DNA from: Candidatus Hadarchaeales archaeon | GTDB taxonomy: Archaea > Hadarchaeota > Hadarchaeia > Hadarchaeales > Hadarchaeaceae | Length of the DNA stretch: 32,000 bases | NCBI GenBank assembly: GCA_038823825.1 | Contig: JAWBCC010000005.1 | Span: forward strand, 1-32,000 | Direction of reading: 5' to 3' | Shown: positions 3,001-16,352 of the stretch, one piece after another | Layout: the number at the start of each line of letters is the position of its first letter | Position numbering within the stretch: the stretch's first letter is position 1 | Made by a program: the position numbers and the translations under genes | The notes under the pieces: model-generated | What the model saw: only the letters and a program-made list of their open reading frames with translations | What the model was told of the DNA's origin: nothing | The model's database searches: none

Positions 3001-3601
3001 CATTTCCGTCTATAGAGACCGTCCAGAGGACGGAGCCGTTCTCACCTTTAAGGGCGTAAACATACGGACGGAGCTCGAAAATCGTGGAAGGATAGCCAAG
3101 ATTGAAGACGATTTCCGGCTTTCCGTCACCGTTCACGTCATAGATCACTGGGGCGGCCTGCGAACCCATCCCGATGTTGAACTTCCAGACGAGATCTCCA
3201 TTTTCCGCGTTCAGAACGTAAAACCAGCCATCAAGCGAGCTGAACGCAACCTCCAGTTTTCCGTCTCCGTTAACGTCCCCAACCGCCGGGGTCGAGTAAA
3301 CCGGACCACCCGTTGAATAACTCCACTTTATCGAACCATCGGCGTTTATCGAATAAAGCCTGTTGTCCCTCGAACCCACGAATATAACCTTCCTTCCACC
3401 CAAATCCGCTACAACTGGCGAGCCAAGATGGTTTGAACCCAGCCTGTTTTCACCTTTCAATTCGAGACGGGTTATCCGGGCAAAAGGTTTTGACTCGGCT
3501 TTGCCTGTCCTCGCTGGGTTTCCTCTCCCGACTGGCCACTCTGCAGCAGTTAACGGAGTCCCAACTATAGAAATGAATACCGTCAACACTAGCACATACA
3601 T
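1..3601 (-). CDS. Large secreted multi-propeller protein. It has a signal peptide, 7 PQQ/FG-GAP-like blades and two blocks of Kelch-like repeats. The C-terminus lies beyond the left window edge.
   Basis: The gene is missing from the ORF track because it has no stop inside the window. My translation of the minus strand in the frame of ATG 3601 stays open to base 1, about 1200 codons. The N-terminus MYVLVLTVFISIVGTPLTAAEW looks like a Sec signal; an alternative TTG start at 3631 would add ARYFPSRFL. Seven repeats combine xxYALxxxxGxxxW with D(V/I)(N/D)GDGxxE(V/I)V, for example GDVNGDGKLEV, DVDGDGKVEVV and GDLDGDGKVEVVV. At least 11 repeats of (F/Y)(W/Y)R(Y/F)NxxxNxWExLxxxP follow, in two blocks separated by a spacer of about 120 aa. 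Confidence 0.8.
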   Translation of the reverse strand, partial: MYVLVLTVFISIVGTPLTAAEWPVGRGNPARTGKAESKPFARITRLELKGENRLGSNHLGSPVVADLGGRKVIFVGSRDNRLYSINADGSIKWSYSTGGPVYSTPAVGDVNGDGKLEVAFSSLDGWFYVLNAENGDLVWKFNIGMGSQAAPVIYDVNGDGKPEIVFNLGYPSTIFELRPYVYALKGENGSVLWTVSIDGNVFSAPSVSDVDGDGKVEVVFGSVNGKVYVVYGDNGQIKWSRSVGGKIYSTVPIADINGDGSPDLIVCTWENGVHALRASDGQPIWSVPFSTIPYVQTDPAVGDLDGDGKVEVVVASRAGRVFCLKGEDGTVLWSFGTSNEILSSPTIADVNGDGVFDVLFGTDSAEIENRVGENARIYALHGKNGALLWAYERPGNVRSEMVVVDIDANGWPDILVTGYLDDRVTLFRTVTVLFEDIPAELENMIPGERENTVFSITDNWKLHKGAEIRLVETSGYWVYTGENTYFTGGYGEAVVGTDKHLYIARCWSATDRAYFVRYNPENKWWEGLARPPDGTFRSGTVLAWDNGDRIYALAGGRTDDNRYEFWCYIISENRWVRLADTPYVNPVGSYENYAGQGAGNALVWVPGRVLGVYDDNYLYAFLGKQARPGGYYRGHASIFARYSVRENKWEILPFHPNWDNQTDDGASLVWAGGRYLYALQGEVPEATPNGNFARFDLLENRWENLPSLLELETGGVGDGASLLWIGEEDYIYAAGGGSCWEEHSDNFYRFNIKENKWERFPNLPWRIDYYVGPRIAYAAGRILFWAGNPSGLGGGEIWEFKQRFALSGWYLSRVFDLGAVVSWERLSLEAETPTLTIGSDAIVSSEPRVLADSSLRVGASSGFGRTRTVDGLCEIISEASNAVAKTLTEEWENLPAWPGLTNQNVTACYAENSASGKRYIYAFDTRYMYRFDIFENVWENLGTNPGSTTTAGSGMVWTKDNYIYMTRGGSGTPNFWRYNIPENKWETLANTPVYQYSGSCIAWGGGSSIYAILNGSSENGLYVYSITSNTWTKLYNLPYGGTPPPPASGSSLVAVGGFLYYAPGGTNQYWRYRISDNTWTQLASAPASWGAGGAQEVINENYIYAVRGGTTTSFYRYNVVTNTWESLTALPATVSYANDRLSFDGAFLYMIRATSDNQFWRYAPAWWENLSPWPGIVGSTVACYAENILSGKRYIYALES

Positions 3602-3673
3602 AAGAAAGCGAGAGGGGAAATACCTGGCCAAGACTTCTCCCTAAAAATTTTTTATTGTTTTTTGGTAAAAACT

Positions 3674-4357
3674 TTACGTAAACTCCAGAAAGCGCGAAAT
3701 CAATGCCCAATATATATCTCCTATGATAACTGCCAAGACCAGCCCTGCAAAAAGAATCGGTGCGAATGGTGTTCCAATTTTTACTCTTATTCTTTTGGGA
3801 ATCTTTCCTTCATGAGCTAACCTCTTTATCTCTCTCACCTCATATCTGGTCAGACCAGCCGCTCTTTTCGGATCTCCGTAGACTTTTCCTTGATGGGCGA
3901 TAGTCTCCGCAGGTATCATTCCTTCCTTCAAATCATCCACATGAACTGTCTGATAAAAAATACCCTTTCTCCTTCGGATTATGGCAAAAAAGGGGAGACT
4001 AAACACTGTTAAAATAACGGAATTAAAGAGAACTGAAATGAAAAGCGGGTAAGGAGACCCAGTCGTGAAAGGAAGAAGCGCACCTAGACCAGTAAAAAGC
4101 TTTACGTCCCCGCCCGCCCATCCGCCGATCGAGTAGAGAGCTATCCCTAAAATGAATGCCGCGATTGCTCCCAGCGCCCCTGCAAAAATCTCCCATATTT
4201 CACCCCTCACCGCTCCGGAAACACCGTGGTAGATTATGCCAAAAGCAATCATTGGATATGTGATTTTGTTTGGTATTATCTTTCGCCTGATATCGGTATA
4301 CGCTGCAAGTGATGTGAAAATCAGGGAAATGAAAAGCGGGATTTCCATCCCACTCAC
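3674..4357 (-). CDS. A24-family archaeal prepilin/preflagellin peptidase (FlaK/PibD-like)
   Basis: 227 aa polytopic membrane protein. The first catalytic Asp is in AAYTDIRRKIIPN (D22) and the second in GGWAGGDVKLF (D84, GxGD-type). A soluble insert (RRRKGIFYQTVHVDDLKEG...RIRVKIG) precedes the last TM helix, as in FlaK-type enzymes. Confidence 0.85.
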   Translation of the reverse strand: MSGMEIPLFISLIFTSLAAYTDIRRKIIPNKITYPMIAFGIIYHGVSGAVRGEIWEIFAGALGAIAAFILGIALYSIGGWAGGDVKLFTGLGALLPFTTGSPYPLFISVLFNSVILTVFSLPFFAIIRRRKGIFYQTVHVDDLKEGMIPAETIAHQGKVYGDPKRAAGLTRYEVREIKRLAHEGKIPKRIRVKIGTPFAPILFAGLVLAVIIGDIYWALISRFLEFT

Positions 4358-4792: not shown

Positions 4793-6067
4793 GTGTTCAG
4801 AAAATTTAAAGGAGGAATAAAACTTCCTCACCTAAAGCCTACGGCTGGCTTTACGATCGAAAGAATGAAGCTTCCGTCTCTCGTCGTCGTGCCGTTAAAG
4901 CAGCACATAGGGGCGGTGTGCGAACCACTAGTTCAAAAAGGAGAGAAGGTTAAAACTGGACAGAAAATTGGGGATTCCCATGCGAATCTTTCTGCTCCAG
5001 TTCATTCGCCGATTTCGGGAGTCGTCAAAGAGGTCAGGATGCATCCGATTCCAACCGGAGAAGAGGTTCCGAGCATATTCATCGAAAGCGATGGTGTTGA
5101 TGAATGGGTAGAAACTTCCGGAATCGATCCGGAGAAAGCCGGAAGGGAGGAAATACTTTCGAAAATAAGAGAAGCTGGAATTGTTGGGCTCGGAGGGGCG
5201 GCGTTTCCTACTCACGTGAAACTGAACCCCCCAAAGAAGGTTGATACTCTCATAATCAACGGCTGCGAGGGAGAACCTTTCATCACAGCCGATCACCGTC
5301 TGATGCTCGAGTATCCAGAGCGGATTATGCGGGGTGTGGAGATAATGATGAAAGTTTGCGGAGCCGAAAGAGCAATCATCGCAATCGAGGAGGACAAGAG
5401 AGACGCCGAACAACAGCTGAAAAAATTTGAAACAGAACGAATAAAAATCGCGGTGTTACCATCTAGATATCCACAAGGTGATGAGAGACATCTAATCAAA
5501 GCATTACTCAGAAGAGAGGTTCCAGCTGGCGGTCTTCCTTTTGACGTTGGAGTGGTGGTTCAAAATGTGGCTACAGCGAAGGCAGTGGCTGATGCTATTC
5601 TAGACGGAAAACCTCTGATTGAGCGGATAGTGACAGTCACCGGCGCAGTCCGATTACCGAAAAATCTCTTGGTCAGAATTGGAACCCTTTTTTCTGCTCT
5701 CATTGAAGAATGCGGCGGACCAGCCAGAGAATATGACAAGATAGTTGCCGGAGGTCCCATGATGGGTTTTGCACAGTGGTGCGATATACCAGTCATAAAG
5801 GGAACTAACTGCGTTCTGCTCATGAAATCCGTAGAAGATGAAGAGAGAGATTGTATAAGATGCGGAAGGTGTGTGGATGTTTGCCCGATGGGGCTTGAAC
5901 CAACCATGCTCGCTTCTTTTTCCAAGAAAAAAATGTTTGACAAATGTCTGGAATATCGGGTGACCAGTTGTGATGAATGTGGATGCTGTGCCTATGTCTG
6001 TCCCTCAAAAATCCCCCTCGTGCAATATATCAAGCTAGCAAAAGATGCACTGAGGAGATCCGCATGA
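4793..6067 (+). CDS. rnfC: Rnf electron transport complex subunit C
   Basis: 424 aa with a GTG start. The N-terminus MFRKFKGGIKLPHLK...LKQHIGAVCEPLV is RnfC-typical. GLGGAAFPTHVK is the nucleotide/FMN-binding motif. There are two ferredoxin-type clusters, CIRCGRCVDVCP and CDECGCCAYVCP. It is the first gene of an rnfCDGEAB array. Confidence 0.9.
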   Translation: MFRKFKGGIKLPHLKPTAGFTIERMKLPSLVVVPLKQHIGAVCEPLVQKGEKVKTGQKIGDSHANLSAPVHSPISGVVKEVRMHPIPTGEEVPSIFIESDGVDEWVETSGIDPEKAGREEILSKIREAGIVGLGGAAFPTHVKLNPPKKVDTLIINGCEGEPFITADHRLMLEYPERIMRGVEIMMKVCGAERAIIAIEEDKRDAEQQLKKFETERIKIAVLPSRYPQGDERHLIKALLRREVPAGGLPFDVGVVVQNVATAKAVADAILDGKPLIERIVTVTGAVRLPKNLLVRIGTLFSALIEECGGPAREYDKIVAGGPMMGFAQWCDIPVIKGTNCVLLMKSVEDEERDCIRCGRCVDVCPMGLEPTMLASFSKKKMFDKCLEYRVTSCDECGCCAYVCPSKIPLVQYIKLAKDALRRSA

Positions 6068-6987
6068 ACAAGCTGGTTGTTTCTCCAAGTCCTCACATAA
6101 AAGATTCCATAACAGTAGAGGAGATAATGTATTCCGTCATTATCGCGCTCGTTCCGGCGGTCGTGGCTGGGGCATACTTTTTCGGGATCGAAATTCTAGC
6201 CGTGATAGCTGTATCAATTCTGACGGCCGTGGTTACCGAATACGTCGCAATGAAGCTAATGAAAAGAAAATTCAGAAATGACGGGAGCGCGATTCTCACA
6301 GGTTTGTTGCTCGCTCTCACACTTCCACCCACGGTTCCTCTCTGGATACCAGCTGTAGGGGCATTTTTCGCCATAGCGATTGTGAAATGTGCATTCGGAG
6401 GACTCGGGCACAACATCTTTAATCCTGCATTGGCTGGAAGAATCTTTCTTGCCCTTTCTTGGCCATCTCTGATGAGAAAATGGCCCGAGTGGGTGGGTCC
6501 TGACGGAATAACCACGGCTACCCCACTTCAATTATGGAAGTTTCAAAACACTCTCACTCCCTATTTCAAACTTTTCATCGGAAATGTTGGCGGATGCATA
6601 GGTGAGACTTCCGCTCTGGCATTGCTCATAGGCGGCCTCTTTCTGATTTCCAGAAAATACATAGACTGGAAGATTCCAGTCTCTTTCATAGGAACCGTTG
6701 GGCTCCTGATGTTTCTGCTCGGTCAGGATCCGATCTTCCACATACTGGCGGGAGGACTTTTCCTTGGAGCATTTTTCATGGCAACGGACTATGTGACCAC
6801 TCCATTGACCGGGAAGGGTAGAGTGATCTTTGGTGTCGGGGCTGGAATTCTGGTTGTCATTTTCCGAATGTATAGTGGGATGACTGAAGGTGTGGCGTTC
6901 TCGATTCTCATCATGAACGCCTTTACACCTTTGATAGATAAGGTCATCAAACCCAAGGTTTATGGAACCACAAAGGTGAAAACATGA
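6064..6987 (+). CDS. rnfD: Rnf complex subunit D
   Basis: Polytopic NqrB/RnfD-like membrane protein. I place the start at ATG 6064 (MNKLVVSPSPHIKD), overlapping the rnfC stop as ATGA; the track start at 5977 lies inside rnfC. The covalent-FMN type motif DGITTATPL is at 6502-6528. Confidence 0.9.
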   Translation: MNKLVVSPSPHIKDSITVEEIMYSVIIALVPAVVAGAYFFGIEILAVIAVSILTAVVTEYVAMKLMKRKFRNDGSAILTGLLLALTLPPTVPLWIPAVGAFFAIAIVKCAFGGLGHNIFNPALAGRIFLALSWPSLMRKWPEWVGPDGITTATPLQLWKFQNTLTPYFKLFIGNVGGCIGETSALALLIGGLFLISRKYIDWKIPVSFIGTVGLLMFLLGQDPIFHILAGGLFLGAFFMATDYVTTPLTGKGRVIFGVGAGILVVIFRMYSGMTEGVAFSILIMNAFTPLIDKVIKPKVYGTTKVKT

Positions 6988-7505
6988 ATACCAGAGAGAT
7001 CATGGTTTTGACCATAATCTGCATAATTTCCGGTTTCTGCCTTTTTGCAGTCCACAATCTCGTGAAGGAAAGGATAGAAAAAACTGAAAACACTGAAATG
7101 ATCAGACTTTTGTCCGAAATTTTTCCCTCCTCGGAATTCGCAGAAGAAAACGGGATATATCTCGCGCGGAGCAAAGAAAATGGAGAATTGGAGGGATACA
7201 TAGCGATGGCAGAAGGGAAGGGATATGGTGGTAGCATCTCGTTAATGATTGGAATCCACAAAGATGGGACTATCAAAAAGGTCAAAATCCTAAAACAGAG
7301 CGAGACTCCAGGGCTCGGGGCAAGGATAACGGAAGAAAACTTTCTTGCTCAATTTGAGGGGAAAAGCGTCGATGAGGTAATGCTCAAGAGAGATGGTGGA
7401 ACAATAGACGCAATAAGCGGGGCTACCATAAGCTCGCGGGCAGTCGTGGAAGCTGTCAGAGAGAAGATGCTCGAACTGGCTTATCTTTGGGGGTCCGCGG
7501 GATGA
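6984..7505 (+). CDS. rnfG: Rnf complex subunit G (FMN-binding)
   Basis: 173 aa with one N-terminal TM helix. The FMN_bind-type domain carries the flavinylation motif DAISGATISSRAV at 7407-7436. ATGA overlaps occur at both ends. Confidence 0.9.
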   Translation: MNTREIMVLTIICIISGFCLFAVHNLVKERIEKTENTEMIRLLSEIFPSSEFAEENGIYLARSKENGELEGYIAMAEGKGYGGSISLMIGIHKDGTIKKVKILKQSETPGLGARITEENFLAQFEGKSVDEVMLKRDGGTIDAISGATISSRAVVEAVREKMLELAYLWGSAG

Positions 7506-8098
7506 AGGAGTTCACAAAGGGGATTTTGAAAAGAAATCCGATATTTTACCTCATGCTTGGTCTATGTCCTACGCTTGCGATTACGACAGCTGTCGAAAAC
7601 GCCTTGATAATGTCCGCCGCATTCCTTTTCGTGATGATCCCGTCGGCCGCGATAATCTCGATGGTTAGAAGGTGGATCCCAAGAAATGTGAGAATCCCAT
7701 CTTTCATTGTCATAATTGCAACCTTCACAACCATCATCGACCTCCTCATCCACGGCTTCCTGCCCAGATTTTACGAAGTTTTGGGAATATTCATCCCACT
7801 CATCGTCGTGAACTGCATAGTTATGGGGAGAGTAGAAGCATTTGCCTCGAAAAATCCGGTTAGAGAATCAATACTTGATGCTGCTGGCATGGGGATCGGA
7901 TTTTCGGCCGCCATTGTCGTCGTTTCTATAATAAGAGAATTGCTCGGAAGAGGTTATGTAGAGATCTTCGGATATACGGTGATTCCCTCTTTTACCCGGT
8001 CGCCAATCGGAGTGATGATTCTTCCGCCAGGAGCTTTTCTCACGATCGGGATAATCATAGCGATTTTCAAGAAGAAGGGGTTGCTTAAAGGGGTGTGA
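7502..8098 (+). CDS. rnfE: Rnf complex subunit E
   Basis: NPIFYLMLGLCPTLAITTAVENAL is typical of RnfE/NqrD. The start at ATG 7502 overlaps the rnfG stop. Confidence 0.9.
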   Translation: MKEFTKGILKRNPIFYLMLGLCPTLAITTAVENALIMSAAFLFVMIPSAAIISMVRRWIPRNVRIPSFIVIIATFTTIIDLLIHGFLPRFYEVLGIFIPLIVVNCIVMGRVEAFASKNPVRESILDAAGMGIGFSAAIVVVSIIRELLGRGYVEIFGYTVIPSFTRSPIGVMILPPGAFLTIGIIIAIFKKKGLLKGV

Positions 8099-8101
8099 TG
8101 C

Positions 8102-8680
8102 TTGGAGAACCTGCTCGCCATAGCAGTCGGAATGATACTCGTCAATAACATCGTGCTCACGAGATTTCTCGGTCTCTGTTCGTTCTTCGGGGTTTCGAGA
8201 AGAATAAGAGATGCGCTCGGAATGGGGATCGCCGTGACTTTCGTGATGACATGCTCCGCTGCGATCACTTGGTTTGTGTACGAATATCTGCTTGTGCCTG
8301 CAGGTATTCAGTACATGAGAATAGTAGTGTTCATTCTAGTTATAGCCAGTTTCGTTCAGATGGTTGAAGTGATAGTGAGGAAAAAAGCTCCCAGTCTCTA
8401 TAGAGCGATGGGCATATATTTACCCCTCATTACAACAAACTGCGCGATTCTTGGTGTAGTTCTCATCAACACGGAGGTTGAAAGATATTCTTTCGTTGCG
8501 TCCACCGTTAGCGGTTTTTCTGCCGGCATAGGTTACGCTCTCGCGATCCTACTAATGGCCGGAATAAAAGAAAGGCTTGAAATCGCAGAAATACCCGAAT
8601 CATTCAGAGAATCTCCAATCGGCTTCATAATCGCTGCCCTTCTCGCTATGGTCTTCATGGGGTTTGGAGGGATGGTGTGA
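8102..8680 (+). CDS. rnfA: Rnf complex subunit A
   Basis: LVNNIVLTRFLGLCSFFGVS and YLPLITTNCAILG are typical of RnfA/NqrE. The start is TTG. Confidence 0.9.
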   Translation: MENLLAIAVGMILVNNIVLTRFLGLCSFFGVSRRIRDALGMGIAVTFVMTCSAAITWFVYEYLLVPAGIQYMRIVVFILVIASFVQMVEVIVRKKAPSLYRAMGIYLPLITTNCAILGVVLINTEVERYSFVASTVSGFSAGIGYALAILLMAGIKERLEIAEIPESFRESPIGFIIAALLAMVFMGFGGMV

Positions 8681-8684
8681 AAAA

Positions 8685-9461
8685 ATGATTGAAGCTCTCA
8701 TCTTGGGTGGGCTTGGATTTTCATTTGGAGTAGTTCTGGTCTACCTTGCCAGAAAATTCGAGGTGAAGGTTGATGAAAGACTGGAGAAAATAGTCGAACT
8801 TCTCCCCGGAAAAAACTGTGGGACATGCGGTTTCGCAAATTGTGAAGAGATGGCCTCCGCTTCGCTAAAAGATCCAACATATTTGGAAAGATGTAGAGTT
8901 CTGGAACCGGATAACAGACGAAAAATCGAAGAAATTTTGGGGGTCAGCCTGCAAGATATTTCTAAGAAAATCGCAATTGTAGCATGTACTTTCCAAACTG
9001 AAAACAAGTTTAAATATGTCGGAGTTCAGACATGCGCGGCTGCTGTGCTTGTTTCAAGCGGTTTCAAAAAATGTAAGTATGCCTGTCTGGGTTTAGGGGA
9101 CTGTGTCAGAGTCTGTCCTTTTGATGCGATATCAATCTCCGAGGGTGAGGTCAAAATAGATAAAAACAAATGTGTTGGATGTGGTCTCTGCGTACAAACC
9201 TGTCCGAAGAACGTAATTAATCTCGTAAATGCGGGTGCGTACGTATTTGTTTCGTGCAGCTCTAGAGACAACGCAAAAACTGTTGTCGGCGTGTGCAAGA
9301 ATGGATGTATTGGATGCGGCCTATGCGCAAAGGCCTGTCCCGTCGGGGCGATAAAAATCGAAAACAACCTCGCGATCATAGATTATTCTATCTGTACTGG
9401 ATGCGGAAAGTGCGCTGAAGTTTGTCCTAGAAAAGTAATCTTCAAACTACGGACCAATTAA
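8685..9461 (+). CDS. rnfB: Rnf complex subunit B (polyferredoxin)
   Basis: An N-terminal TM helix (MIEALILGGLGFSFGVVLVYL) is followed by a CGTCGFANCEE cluster motif. Four CxxCxxCxxxCP ferredoxin motifs follow. ATG 8685 is preferred over the track start at 8664. Confidence 0.9.
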   Translation: MIEALILGGLGFSFGVVLVYLARKFEVKVDERLEKIVELLPGKNCGTCGFANCEEMASASLKDPTYLERCRVLEPDNRRKIEEILGVSLQDISKKIAIVACTFQTENKFKYVGVQTCAAAVLVSSGFKKCKYACLGLGDCVRVCPFDAISISEGEVKIDKNKCVGCGLCVQTCPKNVINLVNAGAYVFVSCSSRDNAKTVVGVCKNGCIGCGLCAKACPVGAIKIENNLAIIDYSICTGCGKCAEVCPRKVIFKLRTN

Positions 9462-11565
9462 CTTTGAGGATTTCTCCGGAAGATGAGACGATCAAGGCGC
9501 TCAGACCGAGATTTCTGATTAGCTCCGCTCCATTTTCAGGACCCATCACGAAAACCGCTGTGCTCAGAGCATCTGCATCTAGGCATGTTGAAGCAATGAC
9601 GGTGACGCTCATCGACAAATCTGCGGGATACCCAGTTCTAGGATCCACGATGTGATGAATTCTCTTTCCGCTTAAAAAGAAAAATCTTTGATAGTCTCCG
9701 GAAGTTGCCACAGCTGCGTTCTCGATCTCCAAGATTTCTACGAGCTTTGTTGGATTTCTCGGGTCCTGAACTCCTATTTTCCAGCGCTCTGTTCCCTTTC
9801 TCCCGAATGCCCTCATGTCTCCGCCTATGTCGACGAGGAAGTTTTCGACTCCGTAAGATGATAAAACCTCACAAGCTCTGTCAACCGCGTACCCCTTTGC
9901 TATTCCGCCGAGGGTAACTTTCATTCCTTCTTTCGCTAATTTTCCGGCATTTTCCGTAAGAAGAACAGCTGACCAGTCGACGAATTTTAAAACGTTTTCC
10001 AACTCATCTTGGCTAGGCATTCGTCCCGTTTCCCTCGTCTTTTTCATCCAAAGATCTACCAACGGCTTCACGGTTATGTCAAAACAACCGCCCGAAATCT
10101 TCGAATACTCTTTCGCTTTGCTTAGCACAAAAATCGTTTCTTGTGAGAGCGAAACCCAGTCGCCAGAGTTGTTGAGCGAATAAATCTCACTTTTTGGGTC
10201 GAATTCAGACATCAGAGAATCAATTCTCGAAATTTCGCGGAAGGCGGCGTCAACTGCTATCCTCGCGAGCTTCAAATTTTCATGGCAAACTGTTATCGTC
10301 GCATACGTGTCCATAATCAGTCTGGTCTCGCGAAGAATGTTTCCGGAGATTTCCGTTCGCTCCCCATAAATGTAGGCGACTGCAAGCAGAGAAATCGAAA
10401 AAATAAGCATGATGGCCAGACCCTGCAGAATTTTTTTATAAAAAACTGGTAGTCTGGGTTGTGAGACCGAAACCAAGGAAAACAAAGCGATTATCGAATG
10501 CATGGTAAGCACTGAGGCCGCGAGGCCGGTCACGCCGTAAAGATTTCCAAAAACAATCGCTGTGCCCAGCCAGACAGCAAGTCCAGCAATCTGTGACAGG
10601 AAAATCAGTTGAGGTCTTTTTCTACCATATAGTTCCGAGAACATGATGGCGGAAAGTGATGATGGAAATATTGCAAGTCCGGCTATCTGACATGCCTTCA
10701 CACCTTCCTGAAAGCTTGGGAAAACTTGCCGAACCAAGAGGGGAGATAACACAAAAACGATCAACGACAGAATTGCTGATAGAAGCAGTCCTTTTCTTTC
10801 AATTTTTCTAGTGTCTTCGCCGTTCGATTTCTTTGGAAGAAGATAAAAGAAGAAAATTTGGGAGACCACGGAAAACAAAACAAATATCCTATAAGCAAGT
10901 TGATAAACTGCAAGCGTGGACATCCCGAAGAGCATGCCTACTATAATTTTGTCGACGAACTGCATCGAGCCCGAAACAACATTTGAACCGAGAGCTCCAG
11001 CAGAAAAGGTTATCTCCTCCTTTGTTGGACTCTGCTTGGAAATTCTGAGAGAAAAAAGCGGGATCGAGAAAATGAGATGAGCCAGAGCAAATCCGAGAAG
11101 TATGTAGATCACTAGTCCGGAAAATCTGTACAGCAGAAAACCGAGAAATATGGATAAGGATTTTGAACCAAGCCACATCCACATATAACGGCCGTAGTCC
11201 TCTCTAGCAAGTTCGCGATGAACAGCGAGTGAAAAAAGGGAAAATCCGAGAGCCGAAATTCCAACTATCCAGTGAACAAAGAGAGAAAGTGCGATGGCAA
11301 TCCACACACTCGTGGCTAAAACTATCAGAAAGAACTTGGAAACTGTTTCTCCTTTCTTTCCAAACACAACGATGGTTTTTTCGAAACCGAGAAGGCAGAA
11401 AATTGAAGCAAACATCCCGATCGAGAAAAGCCAGCTCAGATATCCATATGCGTTAGGGTGTATGAGAGTTGCGAGAGAAATCCAGAACAGAGCACCCAAA
11501 AGCGACGCACCCAACTGGCCCGCAGTCACGTTAAGCAGACCTTCGGTCTTTGGCTGGTCCTCCAT
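9442..11565 (-). CDS. apbE: Fusion protein: a MOP/Wzx (polysaccharide-transporter-like) 12-TM domain, one linker TM helix and an ApbE FAD:protein FMN transferase domain
   Basis: I trimmed the 883-aa track ORF to ATG 11565 (MEDQPKTEG...), because its first 176 codons are antisense to nadX. Residues 1 to about 375 contain 12 hydrophobic helices and a Wzx/PST-like segment, SMQFVDKIIVGMLFGMSTLAVYQLAYRIF. A 13th helix (ILQGLAIMLIFSISLLAVAYIY) follows. The rest is an unmistakable ApbE domain: DTYATITV, LGGIAKGYAVD, VDIGGD, ATSGDYQRFF, HHIVDPRTGYP, DADALSTAVFV. Confidence 0.85.
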   Translation of the reverse strand: MEDQPKTEGLLNVTAGQLGASLLGALFWISLATLIHPNAYGYLSWLFSIGMFASIFCLLGFEKTIVVFGKKGETVSKFFLIVLATSVWIAIALSLFVHWIVGISALGFSLFSLAVHRELAREDYGRYMWMWLGSKSLSIFLGFLLYRFSGLVIYILLGFALAHLIFSIPLFSLRISKQSPTKEEITFSAGALGSNVVSGSMQFVDKIIVGMLFGMSTLAVYQLAYRIFVLFSVVSQIFFFYLLPKKSNGEDTRKIERKGLLLSAILSLIVFVLSPLLVRQVFPSFQEGVKACQIAGLAIFPSSLSAIMFSELYGRKRPQLIFLSQIAGLAVWLGTAIVFGNLYGVTGLAASVLTMHSIIALFSLVSVSQPRLPVFYKKILQGLAIMLIFSISLLAVAYIYGERTEISGNILRETRLIMDTYATITVCHENLKLARIAVDAAFREISRIDSLMSEFDPKSEIYSLNNSGDWVSLSQETIFVLSKAKEYSKISGGCFDITVKPLVDLWMKKTRETGRMPSQDELENVLKFVDWSAVLLTENAGKLAKEGMKVTLGGIAKGYAVDRACEVLSSYGVENFLVDIGGDMRAFGRKGTERWKIGVQDPRNPTKLVEILEIENAAVATSGDYQRFFFLSGKRIHHIVDPRTGYPADLSMSVTVIASTCLDADALSTAVFVMGPENGAELIRNLGLSALIVSSSGEILKVNWSVV

Positions 11566-11647: not shown

Positions 11648-12472
11648 ATGCTGGGAGTTGGAATAATCGGATGCGGCGCTCTCGGTAGCATCTTGGCAAA
11701 AGAGATAGACATAGAAGAGGCGGGAGAAGTGAGACTAGTCGGGGTTCTTGACAAAAAGATGGAAGCTGCAGAAAAACTCTCGAAAACACTTAGAAAAAAA
11801 CCGAAAATCTTCAAAACTATTGAAGAGATGCTCGCGGACAAGGAAATAGACATTGTGGTAGAAACCGCTTCGCAGGAGGCTGTCAAACAGTACTCCGAAA
11901 AGATATTGAAAGCCGGAAAAGATTTGGTGATTTTAAGTGTTGGAGCGCTGGCCGACAAAAAACTTCTTTCCTCGCTCATAAAGATCGCAAAAAAGACTGG
12001 AAAGAAGATATACGTTCCGTCGGGGGCGATCTTAGGAGTCGATGGGATAAAAGCAATAAGCATACGAGAAGTTGACGAGGTACTGATAATCACGAGAAAA
12101 CCGCCCAGAGCGCTCAGCTATAGCGAGTATGTCAAAAGAAAAAGAATTGATCTAAAAAAGATGAGGCATCCGAAGGTCATTTTTGAGGGACCAGCCAAGG
12201 AGGCCGTAAAATTCTTTCCAGCGAGTGTAAATGTGGCCGCAACGGTGAGTCTGGCTGGTGTCGGATTTGACAAAACCAAAGTGAAAATAATCGTGGACCC
12301 AACCCTGAAGAGAAACATACACGAAATACACATTAGGGGGGTTGCTGGCGAATATTCCATAATCGCCAAAAATTTACCTACGGCCGAGTCAGCCAAGACA
12401 AGCATGCTGGCAGCCCTCTCCACTGTGAGGCTTCTCAAGAGCTTGCAAGAGCCTCTCAAGATTGGTGAGTGA
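11648..12472 (+). CDS. nadX: L-aspartate dehydrogenase
   Basis: 274 aa. It has the Rossmann motif GIIGCGALGS, and VPSGAILGVDG, KPP, FEGPAKEAVKFFPASVNVAATV, NIHEIHI and AKTSMLAA. These are collinear with the Thermotoga TM1643-type NadX. Confidence 0.9.
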   Translation: MLGVGIIGCGALGSILAKEIDIEEAGEVRLVGVLDKKMEAAEKLSKTLRKKPKIFKTIEEMLADKEIDIVVETASQEAVKQYSEKILKAGKDLVILSVGALADKKLLSSLIKIAKKTGKKIYVPSGAILGVDGIKAISIREVDEVLIITRKPPRALSYSEYVKRKRIDLKKMRHPKVIFEGPAKEAVKFFPASVNVAATVSLAGVGFDKTKVKIIVDPTLKRNIHEIHIRGVAGEYSIIAKNLPTAESAKTSMLAALSTVRLLKSLQEPLKIGE

Positions 12473-13869: not shown

Positions 13870-13937
13870 GCCACTCTTGTCTTTACTTGACTTGGAGGGG
13901 AAATTTAGATTATACGCCTCGTATATTCAATTTACAG

Positions 13938-14333
13938 ATGCACGAATGGGCTATCGCTGAAGGAATAGTCGCAACAGTCTTGAAGAGCTCTGGAGGAAAA
14001 AAAGTCAAAAAAGTAAAACTTCGAGTCGGTGAACTGCAACAAATAGATTTAGAAATCTTGGAATTCGCCGTTAAAGAAATTTCCAAGATCGAACAGGGAA
14101 AAGAAATAGCTGAAATCGACGTTGAGATCGAGAGAACAGAGTTTGAGTGCCACGAATGTCACAAAAGATGGCGCCTGCACCTTTCACGTTCGAATACAGA
14201 AATTGCGGAACTCGTACACTTCTTGCCTGAGAGCTCAAAGATTCACTTAAGATGTCCGCACTGTGGTTCGTCAGACTTTGAAATCTCCGGAGGTAGGGGA
14301 GTTTGTATAGAATCCTTCGTGATCCAAGAATAG
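13938..14333 (+). CDS. hypA: Hydrogenase nickel-insertion protein HypA
   Basis: The N-terminal Ni-binding signature MHEWAIAEGIV is present. Two CxxC pairs (CHECH ... CPHCG) are separated by a long insert, as in Thermococcales HypA. The track ORF's upstream extension from 13803 is rejected. Confidence 0.9.
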   Translation: MHEWAIAEGIVATVLKSSGGKKVKKVKLRVGELQQIDLEILEFAVKEISKIEQGKEIAEIDVEIERTEFECHECHKRWRLHLSRSNTEIAELVHFLPESSKIHLRCPHCGSSDFEISGGRGVCIESFVIQE

Positions 14334-14347
14334 AAGCGGCAAAACGC

Positions 14348-15028
14348 ATGATGTCTAGAGTAAAACGAATACTCTGTTTCGCCAGCGGAAAGGGGGGTGT
14401 GGGCAAAAGTGTGCTTTCATCAGCTTCTGCTCTGCTCCTTTCTTCGTCTGGGAGAAAAACAGGCTTGTTAGATCTGGACTTCCACGGGCCATCTGCACAC
14501 ACCATTCTCGGAGCGAGAGTTGGATTCGGAGAGAATAGAGGAATAATACCACACGAGTTCAACGGAATAAAAATAATGTCTATTGTTCCGTTTGCCGGAC
14601 GAAAACCGATCTTGTGGAGAGGGAGCGACATCTCTCAGTCCATCTTAGAGCTCTTGGCAATAACGAGATGGGGGGAACTTGACTTTTTGGTGATTGACAT
14701 GCCCCCTGGAACTGGTGAGGAGATTCTCGAAACCAGCAAAATTCTTGAGAGGGGGGAGTTTGTAATCGTGACTACTCCTTCTCTTCTTTCGATCGAAACT
14801 GTCAAGAGGTTGATTCTCGCTCTTAAAGAACTCGAAGTGGAAATCTCCGGAGTTATAGAAAACATGGGGGATGGCAATAAGGCCAAAAAACTCTCCAAGG
14901 AATACAAAATCAGGTTTCTTGGCAATGTGAGATATGATGAAAATCTGGAAAAAGCAATTGGAAAACCAAACAAACTTTTGAAAACCAAAATATCGAAAGA
15001 CCTTCAAAAGATACTGCAAATCCTATAG
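14348..15028 (+). CDS. Mrp/MinD-family P-loop ATPase, probably the HypB-type nickel-insertion partner of HypA
   Basis: It has the deviant Walker A motif GKGGVGKS, plus LLDLDFHGPS and DFLVIDMPPGTGE. The ApbC/Nbp35-type CxxC Fe-S ligand motif is absent. It lies 15 bp downstream of hypA. Confidence 0.8.
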   Translation: MMSRVKRILCFASGKGGVGKSVLSSASALLLSSSGRKTGLLDLDFHGPSAHTILGARVGFGENRGIIPHEFNGIKIMSIVPFAGRKPILWRGSDISQSILELLAITRWGELDFLVIDMPPGTGEEILETSKILERGEFVIVTTPSLLSIETVKRLILALKELEVEISGVIENMGDGNKAKKLSKEYKIRFLGNVRYDENLEKAIGKPNKLLKTKISKDLQKILQIL

Positions 15029-15039
15029 AAAAGAACTTT

Positions 15040-15702
15040 TTAGAAATCCAAACGGAGAGAAAACCAAGATTTTTCGGCATGATTCTGCAGAATCTGCAGG
15101 ATACCTTTAACATGCGCGGCTCCAACAACACACACGACTTTCTTATCGGAGTTTAGAAGAGGAAGCAGTCTATTTGCCATTATGACATTCCGCTGTTCAA
15201 CTAATATTTTGTACGTGAACGGAAAGAACTTTCTAAAATCCGACAAAAGCTTTTCCACCGTTTCCTCCTCCGTGAGATCGCTGATTTTCTTCTCGAAAGG
15301 CATGAAAAGAGAAAAAAGTATTTGAAGACCCATCAGAAACTTTTCCCTAAGCGGAATCCCCATCAGCTGTCGAATTGTTATCTCCATATCCTGATCGATC
15401 AGCATGATCAGAGCTCCCACTTTTCTAGCTTCCTCAATCGCTGTCAGCATTTCTTCTCCAATTGGTGAGCCCGTCAATTTTGCTAACCTTTCTTGAAAGA
15501 TGTAAATTAAACGGATAAGAATAGACGAATTCTGAGTCTTCCAAGTTCCGTAGGTTAGAGCATGATAGCGCGCTGGACAGAGTTCCAAACAGACAACCTC
15601 TGGTTTTTCTTTCGCTATCAATTCCCTAACTTCTCTCACGCTTTCTGGTAAAACATGTCCCACACCCAAGATTATGAAGCCATCTCTGACTTTTTTCAAC
15701 AC
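15040..15702 (-). CDS. TraB/PrgY/GumN-family protein
   Basis: ILGVGHVLPESVREVRELIAKEKPEVVCLELCPARY and VVGAAHVKGI are typical of the TraB family. Confidence 0.8.
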   Translation of the reverse strand: MLKKVRDGFIILGVGHVLPESVREVRELIAKEKPEVVCLELCPARYHALTYGTWKTQNSSILIRLIYIFQERLAKLTGSPIGEEMLTAIEEARKVGALIMLIDQDMEITIRQLMGIPLREKFLMGLQILFSLFMPFEKKISDLTEEETVEKLLSDFRKFFPFTYKILVEQRNVIMANRLLPLLNSDKKVVCVVGAAHVKGILQILQNHAEKSWFSLRLDF

Positions 15703-16352
15703 TGCCGTTCACCAACTTTGTAAATCAGAAGAAGATCTTTTCCAACTTTTTCTATACCAGTTAGTTTGAGCTTTATTCCCTTCTTGACGAGCGGAATTCC
15801 TTCACCTTCAACAAGCGTTTTGGCTCTTTCTCCTCCAACGATCACAGGAGCGATCGATATCCTTATCTCGTCCACCAAGCCATGCTTGAGCATCTCCCAA
15901 TTAAGAGTGGGTCCTCCTTCCAGAAGTATCTTTTTCACACCAAGCTCTGAAAGTTTCTCTAAAAGCTTTCTCAGATCTACTTTCGCTCCATCAAAGATCC
16001 AGACATCCACTCCGGTTTTCCTTATGCTCTCGACCTTTCTTCTGTTCGCCTCCGAGGAGACTGCAACTATCGTTTTCGGATCTCCCCGGAGAACTTTTGC
16101 AGAAAGTGGTATTCTCGCCTTACCATCGACCACTACTCTGATCGGGTTTTTGCCTTTCACTCTTCTAACCGTCAGAGAGGGATCGTCGGAGAGAATCGTT
16201 CCCGCTCCAACCATTACGGCATCAACCTCCGATCTGAGCTTGTGAAGTCTGTCCAAGTCCTCCTCGCAAGATATTCTACTGTCTCCACCGACGGTGACAA
16301 CTTTTCCGTCGACTGTAACGGCTGCGTTCATTATAACGTACGGTTTTTTCAT
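15696..16352 (-). CDS. ribD: 2,5-diamino-6-(ribosylamino)-4(3H)-pyrimidinone 5-phosphate reductase (RibD C-terminal type, riboflavin pathway)
   Basis: MKKPYVIMNAAVTVDGK, DAVMVGAGTILSDDPSLTVR and LLEGGPTLNWEML are present. There is no deaminase domain. Confidence 0.85.
   Translation of the reverse strand: MKKPYVIMNAAVTVDGKVVTVGGDSRISCEEDLDRLHKLRSEVDAVMVGAGTILSDDPSLTVRRVKGKNPIRVVVDGKARIPLSAKVLRGDPKTIVAVSSEANRRKVESIRKTGVDVWIFDGAKVDLRKLLEKLSELGVKKILLEGGPTLNWEMLKHGLVDEIRISIAPVIVGGERAKTLVEGEGIPLVKKGIKLKLTGIEKVGKDLLLIYKVGERQC

What the first reader, a model, noticed from the sequence alone, without database searches (positions are those of the whole stretch)
9442..11565. MOP/Wzx-like 12-TM transporter domain fused through a 13th helix to ApbE, tail-to-tail with rnfB: possible coupling of flavin export to flavinylation
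**Seen in sequence**
- One uninterrupted 707-codon frame joins about 375 residues of polytopic membrane domain to a complete ApbE flavin-transferase domain.
- The membrane domain has 12 hydrophobic helices and a Wzx/PST-like QFVDKIIVGMLFGMSTLAVYQLAYRIF segment.
- The ApbE domain has GGIAKGYAVD, HHIVDPRTGYP and DADALSTA.
- One extra helix links the two domains.
- Lys/Arg clusters fall in loops 2-3, 4-5, 6-7, 8-9, 10-11 and 12-13. By the positive-inside rule this gives N-in, 13 TM helices and an extracytoplasmic ApbE.
- The predicted ApbE substrates sit next door: RnfG carries DAISGATIS (7407-7436) and RnfD carries DGITTATPL (6502-6528).

**Established knowledge**
- ApbE transfers FMN from FAD to a Thr in the Dxx(s/t)gA(T/S) motif of RnfG/NqrC on the outer face of the membrane, so FAD must cross the membrane.
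- The known bacterial flavin exporters Shewanella Bfe and E. coli YeeO belong to the MATE branch of the same MOP superfamily.

**Inference**
- The fusion could be a self-contained module that exports FAD and then flavinylates Rnf.
- I do not remember this architecture being described. Normal ApbE is a lipoprotein or carries a single anchor.
Basis: partly seen in the sequence, partly recalled or inferred. Interest (0 to 1): 0.72.

Follow-up and report, generated by a model that had tools for sequence, protein, structure and literature searches.

The report
Flippase-like transporter fused to flavin transferase
An archaeal gene next to the Rnf respiratory genes joins a 12-helix flippase-type membrane transporter domain to ApbE, the enzyme that attaches flavin to Rnf outside the cell; this may be how the FAD that ApbE needs gets across the membrane, but transport has not been shown.

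Summary
Window 9442-11565(-) is one intact 707-codon gene in a Hadarchaeales archaeon.

- **Domains:** residues 1-368 form a 12-helix Wzx/PST-type MOP domain. Pfam Polysacc_synt_3 scores just above its cutoff, and the best fold match is the WzxE lipid III flippase. Helix 13 follows, then a complete ApbE domain (Pfam E=3e-92).
- **Topology:** Lys/Arg counts (23 inside, 1 outside) put ApbE outside the cell, where the RnfG and RnfD flavinylation motifs are expected.
- **Not an artefact:** intact 712-758 aa fusion ORFs occur in Hadarchaeota, Hakubella (Actinomycetota) and Dehalococcoidia. Most sit tail-to-tail with rnfCDGEAB or near rnfC/D-like genes. Both domains are under similar purifying selection.
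- **Origin:** helix 13 matches the single signal anchor of the closest stand-alone archaeal ApbEs.
- **Caveat:** the closest stand-alone relatives of the membrane domain (39-42% identity) lie in glycosyltransferase clusters, and the tree does not separate them cleanly from the fusions. They differ at a few positions that never vary among the fusions (H36, R226, F240).

FAD export coupled to flavinylation is the best explanation (about 0.45) but is unproven. I found no description of this architecture in the searchable literature. It is a new variant of known parts and moderately interesting.

The parts
9442..11565 (-). Whole gene: 707-aa MOP(Wzx-like)-TM13-ApbE fusion protein. The stop codon is at 9442-9444.
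   Evidence: ORF and translation. A 99%-identical protein is named 'FAD:protein FMN transferase [Candidatus Hadarchaeales archaeon]'. The AF2 model has pLDDT 92.2 and pTM 0.88.
10462..11565 (-). Residues 1-368: a 12-helix Wzx/PST-type MOP domain with N- and C-termini predicted in the cytoplasm.
   Evidence: Pfam Polysacc_synt_3 scores 29.4 bits against a cutoff of 23. The profile search finds about 4,580 relatives, mostly stand-alone proteins of about 380 aa. Foldseek's best non-ApbE hit is the WzxE lipid III flippase 9g9n (E=1e-6, TM 0.67), followed by MurJ and MATE. Helices come from hydropathy and DSSP.
10363..10461 (-). Residues 369-401: the Lys/Arg-rich cytoplasmic loop (QPRLPVFYKK) plus helix 13, which carries the chain to the outside.
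   Evidence: Loop charges. The model shows one continuous helix at 374-400. It aligns with the 'MKR + single helix' signal anchor of the closest stand-alone ApbEs P0160 and P0168.
9493..10314 (-). Residues 418-691: the ApbE (FAD:protein FMN transferase) domain, predicted to be extracytoplasmic.
   Evidence: Pfam ApbE E=3.3e-92. PDB sequence hits are 1vrm at 7e-53 and FmnB 7esa at 2e-43. The fold match to FmnB and ApbE has TM 0.81-0.85. The motifs GGIAKGYAVD, HHIVDPRTGYP and DADALSTA are present.
4793..6067 (+). rnfC
   Evidence: Pfam RnfC_N, Complex1_51K, SLBB and Fer4.
6064..6987 (+). rnfD, a predicted flavinylation target. The motif DGITTAT is at 6502-6522.
   Evidence: Pfam NQR2_RnfD_RnfE E=1e-118. 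Motif position.
6984..7505 (+). rnfG, a predicted flavinylation target. It has an N-terminal helix and an FMN_bind domain, with the motif DAISGAT at 7407-7427.
   Evidence: Pfam FMN_bind E=2e-21. Motif position.
7487..8098 (+). rnfE (the start may be the ATG at 7502)
   Evidence: Pfam Rnf-Nqr E=1e-60.
8102..8680 (+). rnfA
   Evidence: Pfam Rnf-Nqr E=1e-56.
8664..9461 (+). rnfB, convergent with the fusion gene. The 3' ends overlap by 20 nt.
   Evidence: Pfam FeS (PF04060) plus several Fer4 domains. Coordinates. The same convergent layout occurs in L002, L007, L009, L010 and L013.

Best explanation
The gene encodes the flavin transferase that matures the neighbouring Rnf complex. Its ApbE domain sits on the outer face of the membrane. 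There it transfers FMN from FAD to the Thr in the Dxx(s/t)gAT motifs of RnfG and RnfD.

A normal ApbE has a single signal anchor. Here that anchor (now helix 13) is joined in frame to a 12-helix Wzx/PST-type MOP transporter domain.

The most likely role of that domain is to carry cytoplasmic FAD to the outer face, probably driven by ion antiport or membrane potential as in other MOP transporters. The substrate would then be delivered beside the enzyme that uses it.

**Shown:** the domain identities, the fold, the 13-helix topology with ApbE outside (predicted by the positive-inside rule), conservation of the fusion and of its Rnf neighbourhood, and purifying selection on both domains.

**Inferred:** that RnfG and RnfD are the targets, and that FAD is the cargo.
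For: **ApbE domain**
- It is complete and has the FAD/Mg motifs.

**Topology**
- There are 13 helices, with Lys/Arg counts of 23 inside and 1 outside in the window protein and 18-22 versus 0-1 in six homologues.
- Helix 13 corresponds to the signal anchor of the closest stand-alone ApbEs.

**MOP fold**
- Pfam, the WzxE/MurJ/MATE fold matches and a high-confidence model all agree.

**Conservation of the fusion**
- It is one intact ORF in Hadarchaeota, Hakubella and Dehalococcoidia.
- It is convergent with rnfCDGEAB in L002, L007, L009, L010 and L013.
- It lies 3.5 kb from rnfC/D-like genes in L012 and L015.

**Selection on the membrane domain**
- dN/dS is 0.10-0.17 for the membrane domain and 0.12-0.29 for ApbE.
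- All 24 positions conserved across the wider flippase family are kept, for example D205-K206 in helix 7.

**Fusion-specific residues**
- H36, R226 (Gln in 95% of stand-alone proteins) and F240 never vary among the fusions.
- They lie on helices 1-2 and 8, which form the substrate cavity in WzxE. There, Arg pairs are thought to bind pyrophosphate (PMC11706664).

**Genomic context**
- The fusion genes are not in glycan clusters, unlike the stand-alone relatives (versus 33).
- A split, decayed copy (P0012) sits next to an FMN_bind protein.

**Background**
- The FAD source for extracytoplasmic ApbE is an open issue, and the known exporters Bfe and YeeO are MOP-superfamily (MATE) proteins (PMC5655446).
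- Listeria uses a dedicated ECF exporter whose genes sit with apbE genes (PMC9973259).
Against: - There is no direct evidence for FAD as cargo.
- Wzx/PST flippases move lipid-linked glycans, not soluble nucleotides.
- The nearest stand-alone relatives (39-42% identity) are in glycosyltransferase clusters.
- The fusions form one group in only 14 of 100 neighbour-joining bootstraps. Any change of substrate therefore happened over a short evolutionary distance, or did not happen.
- The closest stand-alone ApbEs (ANME-1-like, 50-53% identity) sit beside rnf with no MOP gene nearby. The domain is therefore not generally required.
- I could not read the model coordinates, so I could not inspect the cavity shape or the position of the ApbE active site over the transporter exit.
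- The gene converges on rnf and is not in the same operon.
Confidence: 0.45

Rival explanations
1. Anchor or scaffold only. The 12-helix domain no longer transports anything. It serves as a large membrane anchor or as a docking platform that holds ApbE next to the Rnf membrane subunits while they assemble.
For: - ApbE only needs to be tethered, and truncated soluble ApbEs are active (PMC12052999).
- Related archaea manage with a single anchor.
- The association is with Rnf rather than with any flavin metabolism gene.
Against: - A pure anchor should lose the polar and charged intramembrane residues of the family. Instead all 24 family-wide conserved positions are kept, including D205-K206.
- The clade also adds residues that never vary among the fusions on cavity helices, such as R226 and H36.
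- dN/dS is as low as for the enzyme domain in three lineages.
- In P0012 the transporter ORF stays intact while ApbE has decayed.
Confidence: 0.2
2. Still a glycan flippase. The N-domain keeps the ancestral job of flipping a lipid-linked oligosaccharide, and the protein is bifunctional. ApbE simply uses it as an anchor, or the two activities are co-localised for an unknown reason.
For: - Pfam and fold assign it to the Wzx/PST branch.
- The closest stand-alone relatives at about 40% identity are in glycosyltransferase clusters.
- Those relatives fall among the fusions in the tree: the glycan group plus the Hakubella fusions has 58/100 bootstrap support.
Against: - None of the fusion genes examined is in a glycan cluster. 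The conserved neighbour across three phyla is rnf or rnfC/D-like genes.
- The Q-to-R226, H36 and F240 changes separate every fusion from the glycan-cluster relatives.
- There is no obvious reason why a glycan flippase would travel together with ApbE and rnf between Archaea and Bacteria.
Confidence: 0.15
3. Different cargo. The MOP domain moves another small molecule linked to Rnf maturation or ApbE chemistry. Candidates are riboflavin or FMN, retrieval of the AMP product, or the Mg2+/ion environment.
For: - MOP transporters have very varied substrates.
- ApbE releases AMP and needs Mg2+ (PMC5655446).
- NQR/RNF complexes also hold a riboflavin (PMC12174285).
Against: - FAD is the only substrate ApbE strictly needs from the cytoplasm.
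- No evidence favours these alternatives specifically.
Confidence: 0.1
4. Artefact or two products. The fusion comes from an assembly or frameshift error, or the cell mainly makes a short single-anchor ApbE from the internal ATG at 10410.
For: - A TATA-like TTTATAAAAA lies about 28 nt upstream of ATG 10410, which is the right spacing for a leaderless archaeal transcript.
- Met386 is invariant among the seven closest homologues.
Against: - Intact single ORFs of 712-758 aa occur in independent assemblies from three phyla.
- Met386 is replaced by V, I, L or S in Dehalococcoidia-type fusions.
- The TATA-like run is just the FYKK codons and is absent where the loop reads VRRR.
- A product starting at Met386 would have only a 15-residue hydrophobic stretch with no positive N-region.
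Confidence: 0.04

Closest known systems
ApbE / Ftp / FmnB FAD:protein FMN transferases (PF02424; for example T. maritima TM1553 1VRM, Listeria FmnB 7ESA, V. cholerae ApbE 6NXI)
   Same: The C-terminal 290 residues are a full-length ApbE domain with the same fold and motifs. The gene sits next to rnf, as apbE often does ('rnfF'; PMC5736913).
   Different: Known ApbEs are lipoproteins, single-anchor proteins or cytosolic proteins (PMC12052999). This one carries a 12-helix transporter domain in front of its anchor helix.
Wzx / PST-family lipid-linked oligosaccharide flippases of the MOP superfamily (for example E. coli WzxE, 9G9N)
   Same: 12 helices, a Pfam Polysacc_synt_3 match, and the best fold match. 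The closest stand-alone relatives sit in glycan gene clusters.
   Different: It is compact (about 370 aa), fused to an enzyme, and found outside glycan clusters. It has clade-specific H36, R226 and F240. The cargo is unknown and proposed to be soluble FAD rather than a lipid-linked glycan.
Bfe (Shewanella) and YeeO (E. coli) MATE-family flavin/FAD exporters
   Same: Same MOP superfamily fold. The proposed function, exporting FAD to feed extracytoplasmic flavoproteins, is the same.
   Different: A different family: there is no MatE Pfam hit. Bfe and YeeO are not fused to ApbE. Their function has been tested and this one's has not.
Listeria EetB/FmnA/EcfAA' ECF-type FAD exporter (PMC9973259)
   Same: A dedicated FAD exporter genetically linked to an ApbE-like enzyme and its flavinylated targets. 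Fusions between exporter subunits are used there as evidence of a functional link.
   Different: An unrelated transporter class (ATP-driven ECF). The genes are separate rather than fused to the transferase, and it is essentially confined to Firmicutes.
Trypanosomatid fumarate reductase with an N-terminal ApbE domain
   Same: Another case in which ApbE is fused to a functional partner.
   Different: There ApbE is fused to its protein substrate and acts inside the cell. Here it is fused to a putative supplier of its small-molecule substrate and faces outside.

Membership tests
ApbE (FAD:protein FMN transferase, PF02424) | Significant full-length match to the family profile | tested here: met
   Pfam ApbE E=3.3e-92, covering profile positions 1-265 of 266. 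PDB hits are 1vrm at 7e-53 and 7esa at 2e-43.
ApbE (FAD:protein FMN transferase, PF02424) | ApbE fold | tested here: met
   Foldseek against FmnB, TM1553, Ftp and ApbE gives TM (target) 0.78-0.85 and E down to 2e-19, on a model with pLDDT 92.
ApbE (FAD:protein FMN transferase, PF02424) | Conserved FAD/Mg2+-binding and catalytic motifs (GGIAKG, HHIxDPxTG, DADALSTA) | tested here: met
   Present at 553-562, 637-647 and 663-670, and invariant in homologues. That these motifs are the catalytic and binding elements rests on my own knowledge of ApbE structures.
ApbE (FAD:protein FMN transferase, PF02424) | Located on the same side of the membrane as the Dxx(s/t)gAT target domains | tested here: inconclusive
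   The positive-inside rule (23 versus 1 Lys/Arg) and 13 helices predict that the domain is outside. No experimental topology exists. RnfG has an N-terminal helix plus an FMN_bind domain.
ApbE (FAD:protein FMN transferase, PF02424) | FMN transfer from FAD to the target Thr | not testable with these tools
   Needs a biochemical assay.
Wzx/PST flippases (MOP superfamily; PF13440/PF01943) | Profile match above the curated cutoff | tested here: met
   Polysacc_synt_3 scores 29.4 bits against a cutoff of 23, which is marginal and partial (137-231). Polysacc_synt scores 20.9, below its cutoff of 28.2. Homologous fusions score up to 39 bits.
Wzx/PST flippases (MOP superfamily; PF13440/PF01943) | 12-helix MOP fold | tested here: met
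   12 helices before helix 13. Best non-ApbE fold hits are WzxE 9g9n (E=1e-6, TM 0.67), then MurJ and MATE.
Wzx/PST flippases (MOP superfamily; PF13440/PF01943) | Encoded within a glycan (O-antigen, capsule or N-glycan) biosynthesis cluster | tested here: not met
   The flanking genes are rnfCDGEAB and nadX/nadC, and the nearest glycosyltransferase is about 6 kb away. The same holds in other phyla. The stand-alone relatives do meet this criterion.
Wzx/PST flippases (MOP superfamily; PF13440/PF01943) | Translocates a polyprenyl-pyrophosphate-linked oligosaccharide | not testable with these tools
   Needs complementation or in vitro flipping assays.
MATE flavin exporters (Bfe/YeeO; PF01554 MatE) | MatE profile match | tested here: not met
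   No MatE hit at E<=0.01. There is only superfamily-level fold similarity to MATE structures (E about 5e-6).
MATE flavin exporters (Bfe/YeeO; PF01554 MatE) | Exports FAD or other flavins | not testable with these tools
   Needs transport or secretion assays.
ECF-type FAD exporter (EetB, PF07456 / FmnA) | EetB or ECF-T domain present in the protein | tested here: not met
   Only the ApbE and Polysacc_synt families were found in the protein. No such gene turned up among the window ORFs I scanned. Not every window ORF was scanned.

The most novel reading that the evidence does not exclude
This would be a self-contained module that exports the cofactor and installs it. A Wzx/PST-type MOP transporter has been retooled from lipid-linked glycans to the soluble dinucleotide FAD. 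It hands FAD directly to a covalently tethered ApbE on the outer face. The module has moved together with rnf between Archaea and Bacteria. If true, it would be the first candidate FAD exporter in Archaea, the first PST-branch MOP protein with a soluble cofactor as cargo, and a natural transporter-enzyme channeling fusion.
Probability: 0.4. Interest if true: 0.78.

Novelty: new variant of a known kind. Interest (0 to 1): 0.62.

Why it matters
- **An open gap.** ApbE-type flavinylation works outside the cytoplasm in about half of bacterial genomes (PMC8238504). How FAD reaches it is settled only for Listeria-type ECF exporters. It is explicitly called an open issue elsewhere (PMC5655446).
- **A testable candidate.** A fusion that ties a transporter domain physically to ApbE gives a concrete candidate exporter for archaea and monoderm anaerobes that depend on Rnf.
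- **Residues to mutate.** It offers a short list: D205, K206, R226, H36 and F240.
- **A possible substrate switch.** It may be a natural example of substrate switching within the MOP superfamily.
- **A survey blind spot.** The large flavinylation survey kept only ApbEs with signal peptides or lipoboxes, so it would have dropped polytopic fusions like this one.
- **If the domain is only an anchor.** The finding is then a curiosity of domain architecture.

Tried and rejected
- **Assembly or frameshift artefact: rejected.** Intact fusion ORFs occur in independent assemblies from three phyla.
- **Longer ORF from GTG 12093: rejected.** The extension is antisense to nadX, and homologues start at the position of ATG 11565.
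- **Internal start at ATG 10410: not supported.** Met386 and the TATA-like run are not conserved.
- **Split versions with a separate MOP gene beside a stand-alone ApbE.** The closest stand-alone ApbEs (P0160, P0168) have rnf but no MOP neighbour. The only split case (P0012) has a truncated ApbE remnant.
- **Clean monophyly of the fusions in the N-domain tree: not obtained.** Support was 14/100 neighbour-joining bootstraps, so I do not claim a single origin or a proven change of substrate.
- **Genome-collection scan with the 7-sequence N-domain alignment: failed.** It had no conserved stretch. The 5-sequence alignment worked.
- **Word-indexed protein searches: few hits.** They returned few N-domain hits because of candidate limits. 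The exhaustive representative search was more useful.
- **Rfam scan of the window:** only two tRNAs.


Full report
**1. What is in the sequence**

Window 9442-11565 on the minus strand is one uninterrupted frame of 707 codons plus a stop. The frame stays open upstream to a GTG at 12093. That extension runs antisense through a nadX-like gene (11648-12472, +; Pfam Asp_DH_C). Every full-length homologue begins at the position of ATG 11565, so 11565 is the likely start.

Pfam results:
- A complete ApbE domain at residues 418-691 (E=3.3e-92).
- Polysacc_synt_3 at 137-231, with 29.4 bits against a cutoff of 23.
- Polysacc_synt below its cutoff (20.9 against 28.2).
- No MatE or MurJ hit.

NCBIfam adds only a weak 'MOP flippase family' hit (E=0.002).

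On the plus strand immediately upstream lie rnfC, D, G, E, A and B (4793-9461). rnfB converges on the gene, and the 3' ends overlap by 20 nt. The flavinylation motifs DAISGAT (RnfG, 7407-7427) and DGITTAT (RnfD, 6502-6522) are present. The rest of the window is ordinary archaeal chromosome, including a thermosome, FEN1, class V FBPase and Trm1. A 99%-identical database protein comes from a Candidatus Hadarchaeales MAG.

**2. Topology and fold**

Hydropathy gives 13 membrane helices. With the N-terminus inside, the 'inside' loops hold 23 Lys/Arg and the 'outside' loops hold 1. Six homologues show the same bias, 18-22 against 0-1.

An AlphaFold2 model built on a 141-sequence alignment is confident, with mean pLDDT 92.2 and pTM 0.88. 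It shows 12 helices, a short loop, one continuous helix at 374-400, and then the alpha/beta ApbE domain.

Foldseek against the PDB gives two sets of matches:
- The C-terminal domain matches FmnB, TM1553, Ftp and ApbE (TM of target 0.78-0.85).
- The N-terminal domain matches best the E. coli lipid III flippase WzxE (9g9n, E=1e-6, TM 0.67), followed by MurJ and MATE transporters.

The N-domain is therefore a MOP-superfamily fold of the Wzx/PST branch.

The closest stand-alone ApbEs are from ANME-1 or Methanospirareceae-type archaea, at 50-53% identity and 327-334 aa. They begin 'MKR + one hydrophobic helix + about 12 residues + MGTYATITI'. The fusion reads 'YKK + helix 13 + about 17 residues + MDTYATITV'. 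The gene therefore looks like a 12-helix flippase joined in frame to an ordinary signal-anchored ApbE. This independently supports an outside-facing enzyme.

**3. It is real and conserved**

The evidence comes from three searches:
- Word-indexed protein search: six further full-length fusions of 709-719 aa at 44-71% identity.
- Exhaustive profile search of 1.84 billion representatives: four more 50%-identity clusters besides the window's own, in which Pfam confirms ApbE behind the flippase domain (P0013, P0014, P0015, P0046).
- Scan of GTDB species genomes with two N-domain peptide patterns: 10 loci. The contigs are labelled Hadarchaeota (L007, L010, L013), Candidatus Hakubella or 'Actinomycetota' (L008 = L001, L009) and Dehalococcoidia (L011, L012, L014-L016).

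Wherever the contig continues, the two domains are in one ORF of 712-758 aa without stops. This excludes an assembly-made fusion.

Gene neighbourhoods:
- In L007, L009, L010 and L013, rnf genes follow on the opposite strand, tail-to-tail with rnfB exactly as in the window, running to rnfC or to the contig end.
- In L002 the contig ends 170 bp after the fusion gene, inside a convergent rnfB-like 3' end.
- L002 and L007 also keep nadX-nadC upstream.
- In Dehalococcoidia L012 and L015, the fusion lies 3.5 kb downstream of a cluster made of a molybdopterin oxidoreductase, a Fer4_11 protein, RnfC-like and RnfD-like genes, tatA, tatA, tatC and an AMP-ligase. The RnfD-like protein carries DALTQATPL.

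Nei-Gojobori dN/dS between close pairs in three lineages is 0.10-0.17 for the membrane domain and 0.12-0.29 for ApbE. The membrane domain is therefore at least as constrained as the enzyme.

**4. Where the membrane domain comes from**

The N-domain profile hits about 4,580 representatives, 309 of them at E<1e-30. Almost all are stand-alone proteins of about 380 aa.

Every stand-alone relative whose context I examined lies in a glycan-biosynthesis cluster, with glycosyltransferases, sugar epimerases, NeuB, radical-SAM genes, a GT-C enzyme or an EpsH/archaeosortase-like gene:
- P0008
- P0009
- P0010 (its contig is only 3.3 kb, so the evidence is one adjacent UDP-GlcNAc 2-epimerase gene)
- P0011
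- P0280 and P0281

The family is therefore a normal lipid-linked-glycan flippase family, and the ApbE fusions are the members that left that context.

All 24 positions conserved in both groups are kept in the fusions, including D205-K206 in helix 7. Eleven positions separate the fusions from the bulk of the family.

The nearest relatives, P0010 and P0279-P0281 at 39-42% identity, share several of those eleven. Compared with these, H36 (helix 1-2 loop), R226 (helix 8, Gln in 95% of stand-alone proteins) and F240 (helix 8) are found only in the fusions. G296 is nearly so, with Ala in two fusions.

In WzxE the cavity is formed by helices 1-2 and 7-8, and Arg pairs are proposed to bind the pyrophosphate (PMC11706664). 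By helix number, the fusion-only residues sit on cavity helices. I could not check this in three dimensions because the model coordinates are not exposed.

An important caveat comes from a neighbour-joining tree with 100 bootstraps. The fusions, together with the decayed copy P0012, form one group in only 14 replicates. The glycan-cluster group P0010/P0279-P0281 joins the Hakubella fusions in 58. The order of fusion and fission events is therefore unresolved. Any change of substrate happened over a short distance, or did not happen.

**5. A natural split**

P0012 (loci L024-L026, in a bacterial context with recO and paaX) is an unfused member with the fusion signature (H36, R226, F240).

Right after its stop lies a 65-codon ORF. 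This ORF encodes a helix-13-like anchor and the first 35 or so residues of ApbE ('...RDTFVTITVIAEDTQKAEEAV'), and then it ends. ApbE has decayed there while the transporter ORF is intact.

Divergently upstream lies an FMN_bind protein with HGITGATVT, plus a polytopic membrane protein of unknown family. This links the subfamily to flavinylated proteins other than Rnf. It also hints that the transporter domain has value of its own. It is a single case on short contigs that contain N-runs.

**6. Explanation**

I am confident (about 0.85) that the protein is the Rnf-maturing flavin transferase and works on the outer face.

For the membrane domain, the best explanation is export of FAD to the tethered enzyme (about 0.45). 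The reasons are:
- Rosetta-stone logic from the fusion itself.
- Co-inheritance with rnf across two domains of life.
- Purifying selection on the membrane domain.
- Retention of the family's conserved polar residues.
- Fusion-specific residues on cavity helices, including a gained Arg.
- Precedent for MOP-superfamily FAD exporters: Bfe and YeeO, both MATE (PMC5655446).
- Precedent for dedicated FAD exporters genetically tied to ApbE: the Listeria EetB/FmnA system (PMC9973259).

The rivals are:
- A non-transporting anchor or docking scaffold (0.2).
- A retained glycan flippase (0.15).
- Another cargo (0.1).
- An artefact or a separate short product (0.04).

Two facts weigh against the main idea. 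The nearest relatives look like glycan flippases. ANME-1-type archaea run rnf with a plain single-anchor ApbE and no MOP neighbour.

**7. Known or new**

- The ApbE review describes lipoprotein, anchored, cytosolic and substrate-fused forms only (PMC12052999).
- The large flavinylation survey kept only ApbEs with a predicted signal peptide or lipobox, which would drop a polytopic fusion (PMC8238504).
- Papers on Hakubella and on deep-sea Chloroflexi simply label an 'apbE' next to rnf. I did not check that those genes are the fusion.
- No paper in the library combines ApbE with Wzx, MurJ, MOP or flippase in a relevant way.
- Database names are 'FAD:protein FMN transferase' or 'thiamine biosynthesis lipoprotein'.

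Both parts are known families. The architecture and the implied function are a new variant. I could not query InterPro architectures, so the fusion may be listed there without comment.

**8. Verdict**

- Novelty: a new variant of a known kind.
- Interest: 0.62. It offers a specific, testable candidate for a recognised gap, namely how FAD reaches extracytoplasmic ApbE, especially in archaea. The key functional claim is still an inference, and the closest relatives are glycan flippases.

Noticed in passing
L024 1-3265 (also L025, L026): This is a split and decayed version of the fusion. The MOP ORF (P0012) is intact and keeps the fusion signature. A 65-aa ORF follows it, encoding a helix-13-like anchor plus the first 35 or so residues of ApbE, and then recO. 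Divergently upstream are an FMN_bind protein (HGITGATVT) and a 236-aa polytopic membrane protein with no Pfam match.
   Followed up: partly
L012 899-9669 and L015 (Dehalococcoidia): An unusual cluster: a molybdopterin oxidoreductase, a Fer4_11 protein, RnfC-like and RnfD-like genes (DALTQATPL), tatA, tatA, tatC and an AMP-ligase. No rnfG, rnfE or rnfA was detected. The MOP-ApbE fusion follows. It may be a non-canonical RnfCD-containing complex with a flavinylated RnfD-like subunit.
   Followed up: partly
window 10433-10442 (-): A TATA-like TTTATAAAAA lies inside the coding sequence (the FYKK codons), about 28 nt upstream of the internal ATG at 10410. That spacing would suit a leaderless archaeal transcript. 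It is not conserved in homologues whose loop reads VRRR, and Met386 is not conserved family-wide.
   Followed up: partly
window 9442-9461: The 3' ends of rnfB (+) and the fusion gene (-) overlap by 20 nt. The convergent layout is conserved in Hadarchaeota and Hakubella loci, so any co-regulation is not by co-transcription.
   Followed up: partly
window 15696-16352 (-): A RibD_C-domain reductase (riboflavin biosynthesis type) lies about 4 kb from the fusion gene. Next to it are a tRNA-His gene and a TraB/PrgY-family gene.
   Followed up: no
window 2-3640 (-): A very large ORF of more than 1,213 aa runs off the window start. It has FG-GAP, Kelch and PQQ-like beta-propeller repeats and is probably a surface protein. 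An archaeal A24 prepilin-type peptidase follows at 3674-4357 (-).
   Followed up: no
P0015 (796 aa), P0026, P0049, P0066, P0148: P0015 has an insertion of about 70 residues between helix 13 and ApbE. Four other members of the same flippase family carry long C-terminal extensions (629-1,292 aa in total) with no Pfam match, so this flippase family has been fused to other unknown domains as well.
   Followed up: no
L013 and L010 compared with L012 and L014: Fusions from contigs labelled Hadarchaeota (L013, L010) group with Dehalococcoidia-type fusions rather than with the window's clade. Rnf proteins are 50-63% identical between the window and Hakubella. Either the rnf + MOP-ApbE module has moved between Archaea and Bacteria, or some contigs are mis-binned.
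   Followed up: partly
window 13932-15028 (+): hypA (nickel metallochaperone) lies next to a ParA/NUBPL-type P-loop NTPase. These are probably hydrogenase maturation genes close to the rnf region.
   Followed up: no
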